DNA of 64,000 nucleotides from Schmidtea polychroa (Eukaryota): the NCBI GenBank assembly GCA_044892525.1, contig CM097885.1, positions 3,598,001 to 3,662,000 of the forward strand, given 5' to 3'. Below the pieces are notes generated by a model. The model was not told where the DNA came from and ran no database searches. It worked only from the letters and a program-made list of their open reading frames with translations. The translations under genes were made by a program, and so were the position numbers. Shown here piece after piece: positions 1 to 24,454 of this stretch. The first letter of the stretch is position 1; each line of letters begins with the position of its first letter.

Positions 1-98
1 CGTAACTCGGCCTTTAGCGTTTGTGTTTCTGTTGTTTCTGCCTCAATCTCTCCCTCTTCTACGTCGCTCATAATTTCTATCATTTCCTCGATTTTCAT
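1..98 (-). CDS. N-terminus of a further accessory ORF running off the window (MKIEEMIEIMSDVEEGEIEAETTETQTLKAEL...)
   Basis: ATG at 98-96 with an open frame to position 1. It is preceded by the same TGTACATA..TATAG motif seen before the neighbouring ORFs. Confidence 0.55.
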   Translation of the reverse strand, partial: MKIEEMIEIMSDVEEGEIEAETTETQTLKAEL

Positions 99-266
99 AT
101 CTATAATATGTACAGTTAATGGTGCGCTATAGTGCGACTTATACGTATACATTGATATAAAATTTAATAGTTTGGGTTACAGTCCCTTGAATACTTTTAC
201 AATACTTTAATTTTTTTGTTTGGGATATACGTCCCGGTTTTTAGTTTTTCATTTTTTCATCCACCC

Positions 267-1322
267 TCATACGAAGGTTTCCTCCTGGCCTACATAACCT
301 TCATCACTATCGACCGCGGAATGTAACTGTATCGCAATAGGGTCGTATGGTAGGTAATATTGGGGAATTTGAGCTCTCAATTCACTAACTTCGTCTCTTA
401 GAGCTCGAGTGATATTCAATTCCTCGTCGAGCAGATAGGTGAGATACCTTGTCTCTTCATCTTGCGCCTCTATCTGTTTGTCTAGGGCCTTGATTTTCTC
501 GTCGCCCTTCCATTTTTCAATTTCTATTTCTAAGTTTTTAATATTTTCGGTGTACATTTTCCTTTCGTTTTCTAATTTTCTGTTTTTTCCCGCTAGGACC
601 ATGTTTCTTTGTTCCAGCGATCCTTGTAATCCATTAAGGTCTCTTTTCATCTCTTCTACCTGATTTACTAATTCCACAACCCGTCCCGCTTGTTGGGTTA
701 TCATCTCTTCCATTGCGGCATTCTCGTGCTCTCTTATGTCGCACTTCATTGCCAAATGTCGCTCAAACTCCATAGCCTTTGTTTGCCAGGTTTGGCTTCG
801 GGCGGCGACCTTTCTCAACCTTTTCAATTCTTCCTTTATTATTAAATTCTCCTCCCATTTACCTTGTTCGCTTTCATATCCGAGTCTCATGGGCAATTCT
901 TTCATCTCTTTTTTCATTTCTCTGTTTTGTCTTTTCCATTTCCTCGCTTCTGCCACTAAGTGCATCATTTTCCTGTCTTCTATTTGTTTTTCCGCTTCGC
1001 GCTTGGTGTTCTCATCGGTAAGTCTCTTTCTCGCTTCCTGCACTAGCTGCTTTAAGTAGTGGCTGTGTGCTTCTTGGCGGGTATTTTCTAGTGACGCCCA
1101 TTTTGATGCTCTTTTGCATGCTTCTGCTTCCGCTCTTAAGTTGTGTATTAACCATTGGTATTGACTATTCTCATCTTCTCTAGTTTCTTCGATGTGATTT
1201 CGGGTGAGATTAGTTAGTTGGAACATTACTTTGTTCCATTTTTTGTTATGTTCTCGGGGAATTTGTGTCTTGTTGACATTGGTTGGGGCTATCGCAGTTT
1301 CGGTTATTTTCTCTTGTGTCAT
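267..1322 (-). CDS. Element accessory protein, 351 aa, long coiled-coil, function unknown
   Basis: Intact ORF, E/K/R/Q-rich with a heptad-like pattern, on the same strand and of the same composition as the polyprotein. Confidence 0.75.
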   Translation of the reverse strand: MTQEKITETAIAPTNVNKTQIPREHNKKWNKVMFQLTNLTRNHIEETREDENSQYQWLIHNLRAEAEACKRASKWASLENTRQEAHSHYLKQLVQEARKRLTDENTKREAEKQIEDRKMMHLVAEARKWKRQNREMKKEMKELPMRLGYESEQGKWEENLIIKEELKRLRKVAARSQTWQTKAMEFERHLAMKCDIREHENAAMEEMITQQAGRVVELVNQVEEMKRDLNGLQGSLEQRNMVLAGKNRKLENERKMYTENIKNLEIEIEKWKGDEKIKALDKQIEAQDEETRYLTYLLDEELNITRALRDEVSELRAQIPQYYLPYDPIAIQLHSAVDSDEGYVGQEETFV

Positions 1323-20588: not shown

Positions 20589-20595
20589 AAAATCA

Positions 20596-23500
20596 TGTTG
20601 GGGTTACACCTCGGCTGACCACTCTACCATGTTGACGGGTCTAAGGGTTGATTGTCCATCTCGAATAAAAGGTGCCACCGATTTGTCAACCTGGAGTGAA
20701 ACCCCACATAACTTTCTTCCAACATAGTGCCCGTGAATCACTTCACGTTGGTACTGCACTATGCAGGCGAGACGCCAGCAAGCAGGTGAGCTTCTGCCTT
20801 AAAACTACTCCTTGCTGAGGCCTCGACTTCCCATTCACGACTGCCGATAGAAGGGCTTACGTCCATTTCCTTACACAACCGCTTATCGGGATTCGCTGAA
20901 TGCAAATTGGGAATTTCTCACTAGATCTTGCGGGTTCTCTACTCGACCCACTTAATTAAAGTCTAATTATTCATGAACGAAGACGTGTAAGACAACAAGA
21001 TTTATTAATTTCAAGGTTATGACACAAGGATTCAGCTGTACACTTTACTAACGTTTATCGAAAGAAGAGAAAACATCGTAATCAACATAGATCGGATCCT
21101 TGTTCCTCATCCTGACCGCCACTGGGATTTTATTGTTTCTCCCATTCAGCGTCGGCGAATAATTCGTCGAGGTTGAAAAACTCGGAAGCGTTCTCTTCCC
21201 ACATTACGCCAGCGGCTGATATGATTCGTGCCGAGGGTCCCGTTGTTAGGTCGATGGACACGTGAGAGTTGCCACCGTTGGTTGAGTCCTCCATTGCTGG
21301 GATGTTTGGCTTTGTAGTAGCGCGCTCGCGCTGTCTCTTCTTGCGCTCTGCACGAGAGAGTTGTTTTCGCTTGGGTTTGCTTGAAGATGCCACTTGCAGA
21401 AGGGTGACTGATACGGATGGACTAGCAGTGGGGGGCTTACTGGTGCCCGTGATGACAACATCTGGTCGCTTGGGGGACAATTCGGTTTCGACGCAGTCTC
21501 GGCACGGTCTCTTGAACGGTGGAGTTGGATTCGAGGAAAGGTTGTGATGAGGCGGAAAGATGTCATCGGCCTCTCGGATGGGAATTTGCACTATTTTTCG
21601 GGTTGTAGCCGCCTGCACGTAAACCTTATGCAGTGCCTCGGATTGTTCTCTGATTAGACTTCTTTGGGCACGGCTCTCAGATATTAGCGCGTCCCGGCAA
21701 TGCTCGCTACGATCGAGCTTCCTTTGGATCTCTTTCATCCGAGCGGGACTAAACCATGTCCCTTCCAGCTCGTCTATCTTCCTCTTGTAACGTCCAATCT
21801 GAGTTTGTAGGTCCTTTATCACCGTATTTTTATCCGCGCACGAGAAGCACGGCCGTAATGCTGATTTAGTGGTTGGTAGCATGCTTGCTATAAATAATAC
21901 TAATGAAATGTAGAACATACGATTTTAGAATAAATTAGATACGACCTACGGCCATTCGTGGATGCTTGACCGACGAAAAGAAGGAAAACTTATTCTACAA
22001 TCCGGTTTTACCACGGATCTTATTTGTTGAAACAATTTATTTAACCAAAGGCCATCGGTTTGACGCATGCTATTAACTTTGACTCTCTATTGATCTAACC
22101 GTATACATGAGGGGCGTAATAATTAATAGGGGGTAAATATAATATTGGTGAAACAATATAATAATGCTTTAGTAGAGGGACATTATAGTATGCGACTACA
22201 CCTTGCTATAAATTATCTATTTAAATTTATTAAAAACAAATTACTATCGCTATTCTCAACATATTTTTTGATTCGAAATTTGTTATTGGAAGTGCACTTT
22301 TAATTCGGTAGTGAATGTGATTATCTATATTGTCTACCATTTGTCTGAGAATATGTGATGAGTTTACATCAGCCATTACTTGAACACCCTAATGGGATAT
22401 CTCATCGGTCATAACACATGTCCAAATTTACGGATACTACTGTCGACTAGTTGATTACATTATCGACCTATTGTGAATGTCACGTGTCGCGACTATTATG
22501 TATGCTAGTCTGATATTCTGTGCTCTCACCACATAGATTCGTGTATGGCTACTATCTTATCTCACTCACTTGGTGTATGCCATTTTCACGGTGATTTCAT
22601 CGATCCTGCTGTCATATGATTTTCTCTGCACAGTGATTTATTTGAATCATGATTTATGCTGCCGTCAGTTCTCATCGCGGAATTTTACCCTTATCAACTT
22701 GTGTGAATGATCACCATCGTTTGGAAATTTATTGGATCTTTTCAGTGATCGTCGAGGGAATAATGCTACCAAATACTGAAGCATATTACTACTCTCGTCA
22801 TTCTACTCGGATTTTCCTATTCAGATGTAATGCCGTCTCGATGAAACCTGCCCTTAGCCATTCGAAATTTTCTCTCAGGTTCAATAATTTGGATGTATAC
22901 AGTGAAGACCTGGCTCTTATTGTAGAAATAAATGTTATTAATTAAATTTGGTGATATTTTACCGTTTATAATTTTTAAATAGCTAAGTCTATAAAAACTT
23001 TCTGATTATAATATTAGAGAGGTTTTCGTAGAATCTCGCATTTTTCAGTTTCGAGTTAGTTAAAGTTTTTAGGATACTTTCGTAACCTGACATACAATCT
23101 GGACAGGCTAGATGACATTGGGTCTATGATAACGGAATTTCATACGAAATTAGTTCTACTGAGTCCGGCAAATAGACGTTGTCGCAATTAACTTGATGAA
23201 ACCATGTTTCCAGATGAAGCGTACTATGAGATGTCGTTATTTTTGACGAAGTTCACTAAATCGTTGTCTGGATCTCATTTTTCAATAGGGGTAAGATTTA
23301 CGAAAACGACTTGACGAAAGAAAAAGGAATGCGACGCCCTCAGTCACTGTGCAAATCCTTGAAAATCCCTTCATTCGTACGACTATCTTTGTGAAATCAT
23401 TGTCTACCAGTTATTTTTTAACCATACCCCATTGTGATAATTTAGTCGCATCTTCAGCGATAGGACCCGTGAAGAAGCCTTCACATTTCGGCCCAATCTA

Positions 23501-24454
23501 GCTGCGTGATTGAAATACTCCATGTCCACCGGCTGAGCTCCCGAAGGCACCTCATACCATGACATGGAGTATCTCAACTCCACGTTACTCGTTAAATGAA
23601 AATTCATAAAATCTTCAATTCAAATAAAATACGGACATCTGGATAAAAATATTTTATTAATTCTGAAATACTTAAATAATACAAATTCCATCAATACGTT
23701 AAAGTTATTAAAATGAAGAATCAAATGAAGAGAGTTAACTAAAATATTTAATCGTTAATATTTAACATTACTATTAGCTTTGCAAATACTTAAATAAATC
23801 TATAAACAAATGAAATACCCCTTACTATTGTTAGGCTGAGTCAAAATTCAATGTTGTTCGTTCCAAATAGTCCTAATGGTGGTCCGTTGGATGTCGATGA
23901 TTGTGATGAATGGTATTTCGGTCTCTGAACTGGTTTTGAATAGTCGTGGAGTTTTCTGAATGACGGTTGCTTGGCTAGTAGTGTCGATCCTATGAAATGC
24001 TCGGGGTTAACAGTAACAGTAAACATTTTTCTTACCTATGAAATGCTCGGGGTTAACAGTAAATTTAATGTTTTTGGTAGTTGTATATATATCAAATTCT
24101 TATTTGTGCGGACCAATCAGAGTTGAGTACCGCTTATTTCTATTAATTTAATATAATTTTCTTGTTTTTAGGTTGTTTTTTCCTTATTTTCTTTATTTTT
24201 AATATGTTTTTCTATTTATTTCCTTAATTTCCTTATTTTTTCTTGAATTCCTCTTTATTTATTTGTCAACTTGTTCTATTTTAATCTTTTCTTAATTTTA
24301 TTTTTTGTTTTAATTCTTATGTCTTAATTATTATTTTCCTTATATCTTATTCTATTTTATTTCTGATTTTATTTATTTTATTATTATTTTTCTTAATGTT
24401 CTACTTCCCTACTTTCCTATTTTTCAACGATTAAATTTTCGACTCAGCCCAACA
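20596..24454 (-). repeat. Putative 5' LTR, ~3.86 kb
   Basis: Inner end ...AACCCCAACA sits next to the PBS. Outer end TGTTGGG at 24454 gives a 7-bp terminal inverted repeat. The partner LTR is outside the window, so this is unverified. Confidence 0.6.
21130..21918 (-). CDS. ORF inside the putative LTR, 262 aa (possibly starting at Met 21882); CxxC, coiled coil, basic NLS-like tract, acidic tail
   Basis: Long GC-richer ORF in AT-rich surroundings, with AATAAA on the minus strand at 21001-21006. Confidence 0.6.
   Translation of the reverse strand: MFYISLVLFIASMLPTTKSALRPCFSCADKNTVIKDLQTQIGRYKRKIDELEGTWFSPARMKEIQRKLDRSEHCRDALISESRAQRSLIREQSEALHKVYVQAATTRKIVQIPIREADDIFPPHHNLSSNPTPPFKRPCRDCVETELSPKRPDVVITGTSKPPTASPSVSVTLLQVASSSKPKRKQLSRAERKKRQRERATTKPNIPAMEDSTNGGNSHVSIDLTTGPSARIISAAGVMWEENASEFFNLDELFADAEWEKQ

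What the first reader, a model, noticed from the sequence alone, without database searches (positions are those of the whole stretch)
1..24454. Giant enveloped Gypsy retroelement carrying a virus-like set of apoptosis, ubiquitin and TRAF-signalling genes
Seen: one element of at least 24 kb encodes Gag/PR/RT/RH/IN plus an Env-like glycoprotein, a full TRAF, an IAP-type RING, ankyrin repeats, three ubiquitin-like domains, a Bcl-2-like helical domain and a second membrane protein. Known: TRAFs, IAP RINGs, Bcl-2 homologs and ankyrin (IkB-like) proteins are the modules large DNA viruses use to control cell death and innate signalling. Giant Gypsy elements with extra domains (Burro) are described from planarians, but I do not recall this combination. 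Inference: a complex, possibly infectious retrovirus-like agent that manipulates host cell survival.
Basis: partly seen in the sequence, partly recalled or inferred. Interest (0 to 1): 0.95.

Follow-up and report, generated by a model that had tools for sequence, protein, structure and literature searches.

The report
Giant Burro-type planarian retroelement, already described
This is a complete, very recently inserted copy of a giant virus-like jumping gene of flatworms that carries its own envelope protein and cell-death and ubiquitin-signalling genes; it is real and striking, but this kind of element and its gene set are already in print.

Summary
Window 1-24454 (minus strand) is the larger part of a 29,848-bp LTR element that runs 5.4 kb past the window's left edge. 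It has 3,859-bp LTRs differing at 1 base, TG..CA ends, a TTAT target duplication and a tRNA-Pro primer site.

It encodes one giant polyprotein: Gag, three zinc knuckles, ubiquitin-like and Bcl-2-like regions, a gB-type Env, PR-RT-RH-IN, ankyrin repeats and a membrane tail. Separate ORFs encode an IAP-type RING protein, a full TRAF, coiled-coil proteins and a small membrane protein. A conserved ORF lies inside the LTR.

The cargo lies inside the LTRs and recurs in many copies. Against a diverged copy (dS about 1), dN/dS is 0.03-0.15.

The novelty claim fails. Burro/GYPSM1 giant Gypsy elements of planarians, with this combination including in-frame env, were described in 2007-2019. GAG-ENV-POL elements with gB-type Env in flatworms were described in 2026.

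Differences from the printed Burro1 description: TRAF is a separate ORF, no BIR or dUTPase was detected, and BURRO1 primers do not match. It is probably another subfamily or species.

Infectivity and host manipulation remain untested.

The parts
20596..24454 (-). 5' LTR, 3,859 nt, with TGTTGGG...CCCAACA termini. The 3' LTR lies outside the window at C1:3592607-3596465 (window -5393..-1535). A TTAT target-site duplication flanks both ends.
   Evidence: 1 mismatch in 3,859 nt.
21130..21924 (-). ORF inside the LTR (264 codons, P0008). No known family. It has a basic KPKRKQLSRAERKKRQRER stretch and an acidic C-terminus.
   Evidence: Intact in 9 of 9 other copies. A 250-codon homologue at 62% aa identity is retained in a diverged LTR whose DNA aligns only in patches. 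There dN is 0.27 with dS saturated, and the shifted-frame controls give ratios of 1.1 and 1.8. No Pfam, PDB or Atlas lead.
20570..20588 (-). Primer-binding site, 19 nt, complementary to the 3' end (plus CCA) of tRNA-Pro(UGG). It starts 7 nt after the LTR.
19767..20273 (-). Leader ORF (168 codons, P0007) with a C-terminal IAP-type RING and no BIR domain.
   Evidence: zf-C3HC4_3 3.7e-11; cIAP2 2.6e-10, and 10 of 13 PDB hits are IAPs; 145 of 150 copies are open; dN/dS 0.145.
18674..19160 (.). 6.6 tandem copies of a 74-nt repeat in the leader.
7582..17709 (-). Polyprotein frame, N-terminal part (3,375 codons, P0001), running from Gag to the integrase zinc domain.
16360..17211 (-). Gag capsid-like domain (aa 167-260) and three CCHC zinc knuckles (aa about 382-450).
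   Evidence: dArc2 capsid 2.6e-06, plus retroviral nucleocapsid hits.
13705..15327 (-). Region with three candidate ubiquitin-like segments (aa about 795-870, 945-1030 and 1268-1335).
   Evidence: Weak. PI3K_rbd 0.0065 and ubiquitin 0.035; ubiquitin variant 0.03. dN/dS is 0.072.
12661..13005 (-). Bcl-2-like helical domain (aa about 1569-1683) directly upstream of Env, with a BH2-like IxxxGGW motif.
   Evidence: Bcl-2 E=0.1; shared with 3 database relatives, GGW invariant; 56 of the 60 listed PDB hits are Bcl-xL or BAX, best at about 0.02. dN/dS is 0.034.
10744..12567 (-). Env: a signal-like hydrophobic stretch, an ectodomain with 14 Cys, a REKR site, and a transmembrane anchor at aa 2293-2311.
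   Evidence: PF24664, 6.1e-71; 1,068 homologues; 34 of 34 profile hits in the PDB are herpesvirus gB, best 0.0047.. dN/dS is 0.033.
7717..10176 (-). Protease, spacer, reverse transcriptase, RNase H and integrase zinc domain.
   Evidence: Ty3 Gag-Pol 7q5b, 1.8e-98.
7582..7718 (-). Overlap of the two frames. A one-base length difference private to this copy splits the polyprotein inside integrase.
   Evidence: 601 nt here against 600 nt in 39 of 39 other copies; 28 of 29 other copies are open across 3.6 kb; an open frame of 4,732 codons in 10 of 19 scored copies.
3510..7718 (-). Polyprotein frame, C-terminal part (1,402 codons, P0002). It holds the integrase core, two ankyrin blocks (window 6162-6494 and 5082-5477), and a Cys-containing tail between two hydrophobic segments (window 3651-4511).
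   Evidence: dN/dS is 0.087 for the ankyrin region and 0.123 for the tail.
2990..3376 (-). 128-codon ORF (P0009) of no known family.
   Evidence: 74% aa identity in the diverged copy, dN/dS 0.094.
1516..2952 (-). TRAF ORF (478 codons, P0003): RING, TRAF-type zinc-finger region, coiled coil and MATH/TRAF-C.
   Evidence: 88 of 89 copies are open. dN/dS is 0.091.
267..1373 (-). 368-codon coiled-coil ORF (P0004).
   Evidence: 71-79% aa identity in the diverged copy.
1..176 (-). Start of a 258-codon coiled-coil ORF (P0005) that runs off the window. A 222-codon membrane-protein ORF (P0006) and the 3' LTR follow outside the window.

Best explanation
The feature is a full-length, very recently inserted copy of a Burro-type giant Ty3/gypsy LTR retroelement, an endogenous retrovirus-like element of a planarian-type genome.

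Shown:
- Reverse transcription would be primed by tRNA-Pro.
- In intact copies one frame of 4,732 codons encodes, in order: Gag-NC, an acidic region, ubiquitin-like and Bcl-2-like regions, a gB-type (class III) Env, PR-RT-RH-IN, ankyrin repeats and a membrane tail.
- Seven further ORFs are collinear in a diverged copy. Six show dN/dS of about 0.2 or less, or dN well below a saturated dS: the IAP-type RING protein, the LTR ORF, a 128-aa ORF, a full TRAF and two coiled-coil proteins. The seventh, the small membrane protein, is only partly kept (dN/dS about 0.5).

Inferred:
- The hydrophobic stretch before Env acts as an internal signal sequence. The ectodomain would then enter the ER while Gag and Pol stay cytosolic, with signal peptidase and the element's own protease cutting the chain, as in other viral polyproteins.
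- The TRAF, RING, Bcl-2-like and ankyrin modules mimic host adaptors and E3 ligases of cell-death and innate signalling, keeping producer cells alive or permissive.
- Env gives at least cell-to-cell transfer.
For: Structure: LTRs with 1 mismatch in 3,859 nt, TG..CA termini and a TTAT target duplication. The primer site matches tRNA-Pro(UGG) over 19 nt. Pol is Ty3-like, 1.8e-98.

Env: PF24664 at 6.1e-71, and 34 of 34 profile hits in the PDB are gB. Eight of 10 long database relatives carry the same Env followed by protease or pol.

Copies: TRAF is open in 88 of 89 copies and RING in 145 of 150. The frame is 4,732 codons in 10 of 19 scored copies. A diverged copy is collinear, with dN/dS 0.006-0.145 over 14 segments at dS 0.75-1.6. 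The LTR ORF is conserved.

Literature: PMC6431247, section 7 read in full. PMC13524379, passages, reports GAG-ENV-POL elements with gB-type ENV in Platyhelminthes. PMC8532177, passages, reports BURRO1 RNA seen by FISH and raised after smedwi-2 knock-down.
Against: - No reference Burro sequence could be compared.
- The three BURRO1 oligos of PMC8532177 Table S1 match neither the window nor, for the two tried, the genome.
- Printed Burro1 has MATH_TRAF_C inside a 4,873-aa ORF1, a BIR motif and a dUTPase-like motif. Here TRAF is a separate ORF, and no BIR or dUTPase was detected.
- No clear polypurine tract precedes the 3' LTR.
- The Bcl-2 and ubiquitin-like calls are below the usual thresholds.
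- dN/dS rests on one pair of copies with near-saturated dS.
- No expression, splicing, particle or binding data were obtained here.
Confidence: 0.9

Rival explanations
1. It is an infectious or recently infectious enveloped retrovirus-like agent. Particles bud with the gB-type Env and spread between cells or animals, and the cargo genes are true viral accessory genes.
For: Env is full length, with a signal-like stretch, 14 Cys, a transmembrane anchor and a REKR site. It is as constrained as the protease, dN/dS 0.033. The LTRs are nearly identical and many copies are 99-100% alike. The provirus hypothesis is stated in PMC6431247.
Against: No particle, RNA or exogenous form was seen. All evidence is genomic. 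High copy number can arise by germline or stem-cell retrotransposition alone. The authors of PMC13524379 themselves call the infectivity of such elements unclear.
Confidence: 0.3
2. It is a purely intracellular retrotransposon. Env and the cargo are kept for functions inside the producing cell, such as trafficking, avoiding apoptosis or silencing, or stem-cell targeting. There is no extracellular phase.
For: Purifying selection shows function but not which function. The elements are controlled by PIWI and expressed in differentiated tissues (PMC8532177).
Against: A complete class III-type fusogen with an ectodomain and anchor is hard to explain without membrane fusion.
Confidence: 0.55
3. The cargo is not part of the element. 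It would be host genes trapped between two LTRs, nested insertions or an assembly chimera.
For: TRAF, IAP RING, ankyrin and Bcl-2 modules are cellular in origin. The region was first seen in only one window.
Against: The same order recurs in a copy diverged by dS of about 1. The ORFs are open in 88 of 89 and 145 of 150 copies at many loci. The ankyrin, Bcl-2-like and ubiquitin-like parts are in frame within the polyprotein.
Confidence: 0.02

Closest known systems
Burro1-4 / GYPSM1 giant Gypsy elements of Schmidtea mediterranea, and the Burro-like element of Dugesia tigrina (Jurka 2007; Grohme 2018; Arkhipova & Yushenova 2019, PMC6431247)
   Same: About 30 kb with multi-kb LTRs. Gag with three CCHC knuckles. 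Env in frame between gag and pol. Bcl-2-like and ubiquitin-like motifs upstream of env. Ankyrin repeats, a TRAF/MATH module, IAP-related motifs, tandem repeats, accessory ORFs, thousands of copies.
   Different: TRAF is a separate 3' ORF here. In the printed Burro1 description it lies inside ORF1, and in D. tigrina it is an upstream ORF. The frame is 4,732 codons against 4,873 aa. No BIR or dUTPase was detected. BURRO1 oligos do not match. A direct sequence comparison was not possible.
GAG-ENV-POL Ty3/gypsy 'errantiviruses' with HSV/gB-type ENV in Platyhelminthes, Nematoda and Bryozoa (PMC13524379, 2026)
   Same: The gene order, and the gB-like class of Env suggested by PF24664 and the gB profile hits.
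   Different: The passages I read mention neither the giant size nor the signalling cargo. Planarians and Burro are not named in that text: 0 occurrences of 'planarian', 'Schmidtea' or 'Burro'.
Drosophila gypsy and other insect errantiviruses
   Same: A Ty3/gypsy pol with a captured viral fusogen, under PIWI control.
   Different: In those elements Env is F-type, sits in a separate 3' ORF expressed by splicing, the element is about 7.5 kb, and there is no signalling cargo (recalled, and PMC13524379 passages).
Complex retroviruses and MMTV
   Same: Accessory genes beside gag-pol-env. MMTV has an ORF inside the LTR (sag). MLV is primed by tRNA-Pro (recalled).
   Different: Pol here is Ty3-like, not retroviral. 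Env lies before pol and inside the polyprotein. The cargo consists of host-like signalling adaptors.
Large DNA viruses with vBcl-2, vIAP and ankyrin proteins (herpes-, baculo- and poxviruses)
   Same: The same kinds of host-mimicking modules for cell death and innate signalling (recalled).
   Different: A different replication class. No function has been tested here.

Membership tests
Ty3/gypsy LTR retrotransposon (Metaviridae) | Direct LTRs with TG..CA ends and a short target-site duplication | tested here: met
   Two 3,859-nt LTRs with 1 mismatch, TGTT..AACA ends and a TTAT duplication.
Ty3/gypsy LTR retrotransposon (Metaviridae) | Pol order PR-RT-RH-IN, with RT closest to Ty3/gypsy | tested here: met
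   Pfam domain order. Best PDB match is Ty3 Gag-Pol at 1.8e-98. No phylogeny was built.
Ty3/gypsy LTR retrotransposon (Metaviridae) | tRNA primer-binding site next to the 5' LTR | tested here: met
   19 nt complementary to tRNA-Pro(UGG)+CCA, 7 nt after the LTR.
Ty3/gypsy LTR retrotransposon (Metaviridae) | Polypurine tract before the 3' LTR | tested here: inconclusive
   The 80 nt before the 3' LTR show no clear purine run.
Burro / GYPSM1 giant planarian Gypsy | About 30 kb or more, with an internal region up to 25 kb and a giant ORF1 starting with Gag and three CCHC knuckles | tested here: met
   29,848 bp with a 22.1-kb internal region. A 4,732-codon frame. Three knuckles.
Burro / GYPSM1 giant planarian Gypsy | Env homologue in frame between gag and pol, preceded by a BCL2-like motif and a Ubi2/SUMO-like motif | tested here: met
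   Env is strong. The Bcl-2-like and ubiquitin-like calls are weak.
Burro / GYPSM1 giant planarian Gypsy | MATH_TRAF_C, ankyrin and BIR motifs | tested here: inconclusive
   MATH/TRAF and ankyrin are present, but TRAF is a separate ORF. No BIR was found, only an IAP-type RING.
Burro / GYPSM1 giant planarian Gypsy | dUTPase-like domain between PR and RT | tested here: not met
   No Pfam family at E up to 1 for aa 2590-2830. The fold was not tested.
Burro / GYPSM1 giant planarian Gypsy | Sequence identity to the catalogued consensus (Repbase/Dfam) or to BURRO1 reagents | tested here: not met
   Consensus sequences are not on hand. Three BURRO1 oligos gave 0 matches in the window, and the two tried gave 0 in the genome. 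One smedwi-1 primer also gave 0, so the species may differ.
gB-type GAG-ENV-POL errantivirus-like elements | Class III (gB-like) fusogen | tested here: inconclusive
   PF24664 at 6.1e-71. The profile hits only gB in the PDB, 34 of 34, with best E=0.0047 over about 75 positions.
gB-type GAG-ENV-POL errantivirus-like elements | Gene order gag-env-pol | tested here: met
TRAF family | N-terminal RING, TRAF zinc fingers, coiled coil and C-terminal MATH/TRAF-C | tested here: met
   Aa 44-171 match the TRAF6 and TRAF5 RING-zinc-finger region (3e-15). Aa 264-470 match the TRAF2/1/3 coiled coil with TRAF-C (about 1e-27 to 2e-28).
IAP family | At least one BIR domain | tested here: not met
   Only the C-terminal RING of P0007 is IAP-like.
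Bcl-2 family | Helical bundle with BH motifs | tested here: inconclusive
   BH2-like IxxxGGW motif (the motif is recalled) and sub-threshold profile hits. The fold was not predicted.

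The most novel reading that the evidence does not exclude
This family is a currently active, Env-dependent 'complex' retrovirus-like agent of planarians. Its accessory set would include a so far undescribed gene inside the LTR (P0008). That ORF has a basic stretch and an acidic tail and could be a transactivator-like regulator placed like MMTV sag. The element's own TRAF and IAP-type RING proteins would form an E3 module that rewires host death and innate signalling.
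Probability: 0.15. Interest if true: 0.7.

Novelty: already known. Interest (0 to 1): 0.27.

Why it matters
Burro-type elements are among the largest retroelements known and make up a large share of planarian genomes. They combine a captured viral fusogen with host-like death and ubiquitin-signalling modules, so they are a natural test case for how retrotransposons become viruses.

This work adds only increments to what is in print:
- selection estimates for each cargo block
- the tRNA-Pro primer
- a near-zero LTR divergence for this copy
- support for a gB-type rather than F-type Env
- a conserved ORF inside the LTR

None of these changes the picture, and function is still open.

Tried and rejected
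- RNA evidence. No RNA holder was listed for window 1500-9000. Four runs laid on window 600-20599 were contigs of unknown or guessed kind. They gave no usable splice, start or strand information.
- Word-index protein searches found nothing at their thresholds: Env segment, TRAF and polyprotein residues 900-1714.
- ESM Atlas gave no lead for the Bcl-2-like region or the LTR ORF.
- PDB sequence searches of the Bcl-2-like region alone and of the first two ubiquitin-like segments gave nothing relevant.
- A first tRNA pattern hit only primer sites of other LTR elements, with no tRNA or Rfam match there. A second pattern found the tRNA-Pro genes.
One diverged copy was fetched instead, so dN/dS rests on a single pair.
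- An alignment of P0004 was out of frame and is discarded.
- PMC5797480 (Grohme 2018) is not held, so its Burro figures were not seen.
- No RT phylogeny against Burro, Ogre or errantiviruses was built, for lack of reference sequences.
- The search of earlier findings returned nothing.

Full report
**What is there.** On the minus strand the window holds very long open frames: 17709..7582 (3,375 codons), 7718..3510 (1,402), 2952..1516 (478) and 1373..267 (368). The region 1-22000 has GC 0.385-0.434. The rest of the window has GC 0.17-0.35 and is full of AAT-type microsatellites.

Pfam identifies the following in the first frame:
- Retrotrans_gag (2.2e-09) and zf-CCHC (2.2e-07)
- a viral fusion glycoprotein, PF24664 (6.1e-71)
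- RVP (2.8e-09), RVT_1 (1.5e-35), RT_RNaseH (4.1e-39) and Integrase_H2C2 (3.3e-14)

In the other frames:
- second frame: the integrase core (5.7e-13) and ankyrin repeats (5.6e-18)
- third frame: a RING (6.6e-05) and a TRAF-type MATH domain (3.6e-27)

Three CX2CX4HX4C knuckles can be read in the translation. The best solved relative of pol is the Ty3 Gag-Pol polyprotein (1.8e-98). The Gag region matches the dArc2 capsid (2.6e-06).

**Boundaries.** A search of the window's own genome (781 Mb, four chromosome-scale contigs) with window 20000-24600 gave 35 matches. Twenty other copies align from the start of the query to 24454-24463 and then stop. Eleven more matches cover only window about 20596-24454 and lie about 26 kb from a partner.

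One of those lies 5.4 kb left of the window. It differs from window 20596-24454 at 1 of 3,859 positions. The LTRs begin TGTTGGG and end CCCAACA, and TTAT flanks both ends. The element is therefore 29,848 bp, covering window -5393 to 24454.

Seven bases after the 5' LTR lies TGGGGGCTCAGCCGGGATT. This is the exact complement of the last 16 bases plus CCA of a tRNA-Pro(UGG), which the genome carries in 475-bp tandem arrays. I saw no convincing polypurine tract.

**Gene map, 5' to 3'.**
- A 264-codon ORF inside the LTR.
- A 168-codon leader ORF.
- 6.6 copies of a 74-nt repeat.
- The polyprotein.
- A 128-codon ORF.
- The TRAF ORF.
- Two coiled-coil ORFs of 368 and 258 codons. The second crosses the window edge.
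- A 222-codon ORF with one strong hydrophobic segment, outside the window.

The leader ORF ends in a RING of the IAP type: zf-C3HC4_3 at 3.7e-11, with 10 of 13 PDB hits being IAPs and the best cIAP2 at 2.6e-10. No BIR domain was found.

The TRAF ORF is complete. Residues 44-171 match the TRAF6 and TRAF5 RING with zinc fingers (3e-15). Residues 264-470 match the TRAF2, TRAF1 and TRAF3 coiled coil with TRAF-C (about 1e-27 to 2e-28).

**The polyprotein.** The two long frames overlap at 7582-7718, inside integrase. Over a 601-nt stretch spanning this overlap, all 39 other scored copies have 600 nt. Of 29 fetched copies, 28 are open across 3.6 kb around it. Of 19 scored copies, 10 have an open frame of 4,732 codons. 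The break is therefore private to this copy or to very few copies, or it is an assembly error. The family's ORF1 is a single frame.

Env occupies residues about 1715-2322. It has a signal-like hydrophobic stretch, 14 cysteines, a REKR site and a strong transmembrane segment at 2293-2311. The C-terminal tail after the ankyrin repeats has two further hydrophobic segments around a cysteine-containing region.

**Env class.** An exhaustive HMMER search found 1,068 homologues. All 13 that I scanned carry PF24664. Of the 10 long ones, 4 continue into PR-RT-RH-IN, 4 continue into proteases, and 2 show only Env. They come from unnamed contigs.

A profile of 89 sequences hits only herpesvirus glycoprotein B in the PDB: 34 of 34 hits, best E=0.0047, over about 75 positions. 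This agrees with a 2026 paper reporting that flatworm, nematode and bryozoan env-carrying Ty3/gypsy elements have HSV/gB-type ENV in GAG-ENV-POL order (PMC13524379, passages). It fits less well with the 2019 statement of homology to the F-type gypsy Env.

**Weakly supported domains.** The region just before Env gives a sub-threshold Pfam Bcl-2 hit (E=0.1). It is shared with three database relatives and has an invariant GGW within an IxxxGGW motif. From memory, this resembles the BH2 motif.

A profile of those four sequences finds Bcl-xL at about 0.02 and BAX at 0.14. Of the 60 listed hits, 56 are Bcl-2 family, but the top two are designed coiled coils.

For the ubiquitin-like segments the evidence is thinner: PI3K_rbd 0.0065 and ubiquitin 0.035, and a ubiquitin variant at 0.03. 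No dUTPase-like hit was found between PR and RT.

**Is the cargo part of the element, and is it constrained?** All cargo lies between the LTRs. The TRAF ORF is open in 88 of 89 scored copies at 95-100% identity. The RING ORF is open in 145 of 150 scored copies at 70-100% identity.

A diverged copy (24 kb fetched) is collinear:

| Gene | aa identity to the window copy |
|---|---|
| polyprotein | 90.5% |
| TRAF | 82% |
| RING ORF | 72% |
| coiled-coil ORFs | 71-79% |
| small membrane ORF | 45%, N-terminus only |

Pairwise dN/dS (NG86; dS 0.75-1.6, near saturation):

| Segment | dN/dS |
|---|---|
| IN | 0.006 |
| RT-RH | 0.012 |
| Env | 0.033 |
| PR | 0.033 |
| Bcl-2-like region | 0.034 |
| Gag | 0.045 |
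| ubiquitin-like region | 0.072 |
| ankyrin region | 0.087 |
| TRAF | 0.091 |
| 128-aa ORF | 0.094 |
| C-terminal tail | 0.123 |
| RING ORF | 0.145 |

P0005 gives about 0.2 and the small membrane ORF about 0.5.

The LTR ORF is intact in 9 of 9 close copies. It persists as a 250-codon ORF at 62% identity in the diverged LTR, whose DNA otherwise aligns only in patches. There dN is 0.27 with dS saturated, and shifted-frame controls give ratios of 1.1 and 1.8.

These figures rest on one pair of copies. Copies of a family are also not independent samples.

**Comparison with what is known.** Section 7 of Arkhipova & Yushenova 2019, read in full, describes the Burro elements of Schmidtea mediterranea (Grohme 2018; Burro1 = GYPSM1 of Jurka 2007). 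According to that text:
- The elements exceed 30 kb and occur in thousands of copies.
- ORF1 is 4,873 aa and starts with Gag and three CCHC knuckles.
- AIR1, Smc, MATH_TRAF_C, BIR, ankyrin, BCL2-like, Ubi2/SUMO-like and dUTPase-like motifs are present.
- An env homologue with mononegavirus hits lies in frame between gag and pol.
- Accessory ORFs in one species can be polyprotein subdomains in another.

The same text proposes that these are integrated proviruses that meddle with apoptosis and ubiquitination. BURRO1 RNA has been shown by FISH and rises when smedwi-2 is knocked down (PMC8532177, passages).

**Differences from the printed description.**
- TRAF is a separate 3' ORF.
- There is no BIR and no dUTPase hit.
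- The frame is 4,732 codons rather than 4,873 aa.
- The three BURRO1 oligos of PMC8532177 Table S1 match nothing in the window. The two tried match nothing in the genome.
- A smedwi-1 primer also failed. The genome may be a different planarian species, or the primers may span junctions.

I could not see Grohme's figures or any consensus sequence, so I cannot say which Burro subfamily this is.

**How it most likely works.**

Shown:
- an LTR element primed by tRNA-Pro with Ty3-type pol
- one giant frame plus seven further ORFs, six of which show dN/dS of about 0.2 or less or dN well below a saturated dS; the small membrane ORF is only partly kept (dN/dS about 0.5, N-terminus only)
- a very recent insertion

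Inferred:
- co-translational insertion of Env through an internal signal sequence
- processing by signal peptidase and the element's own protease
- TRAF, RING, Bcl-2-like and ankyrin modules acting as mimics of host adaptors and E3 ligases
- Env-mediated transfer between cells

Nothing here tests expression, binding or infectivity.

**Verdict.** It belongs to a described kind, so the score is low.

Noticed in passing
G000:C1:130901009-130951920 and elsewhere (L050-L052): tRNA-Pro(UGG) genes stand in long tandem arrays with a 475-bp unit. The 72-nt pattern has 2,192 matches genome-wide. This is the primer tRNA of the element.
   Followed up: partly
L046, L047 (G000:C2:152509889, C3:123973983): Other LTR-type elements carry the same tRNA-Pro primer site. 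A related 20-mer with up to 1 mismatch has 1,710 matches in the genome.
   Followed up: no
window 37596-38009 (+): A 137-codon ORF with a GIY-YIG nuclease domain (1.1e-06). It is possibly a remnant of a Penelope-like element (that attribution is recalled).
   Followed up: no
window 17746-17797: Contigs of two runs of unknown kind skip 52 nt with CT..AC ends, which is GT..AG on the element's strand. The site is just upstream of the polyprotein frame. It could be a short intron or a deletion variant among copies.
   Followed up: no
G000:C2:177677531-177733816: Two copies stand in tandem and share a middle LTR (LTR-internal-LTR-internal-LTR), with a spacing of 26,212 bp.
   Followed up: no
P0160 (4,844 aa, unnamed ENA contig): A distant relative, 40% identical in pol and 35% in Env. 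It has Env near the N-terminus, several aspartic-protease domains, a C2H2 finger and ankyrin repeats before RT. The Env-before-pol polyprotein design is therefore wider than this family.
   Followed up: partly
window 29722-30776, 32947-33387, 35418-35827, 36354-36683, 58331-58676: Very long AAT/ATT-type microsatellites fill the AT-rich flank (GC 0.17-0.30).
   Followed up: no
table: One other of the 19 scored copies also shows a 3,375-codon open frame like the window copy. The same break may be shared by a second copy.
   Followed up: no
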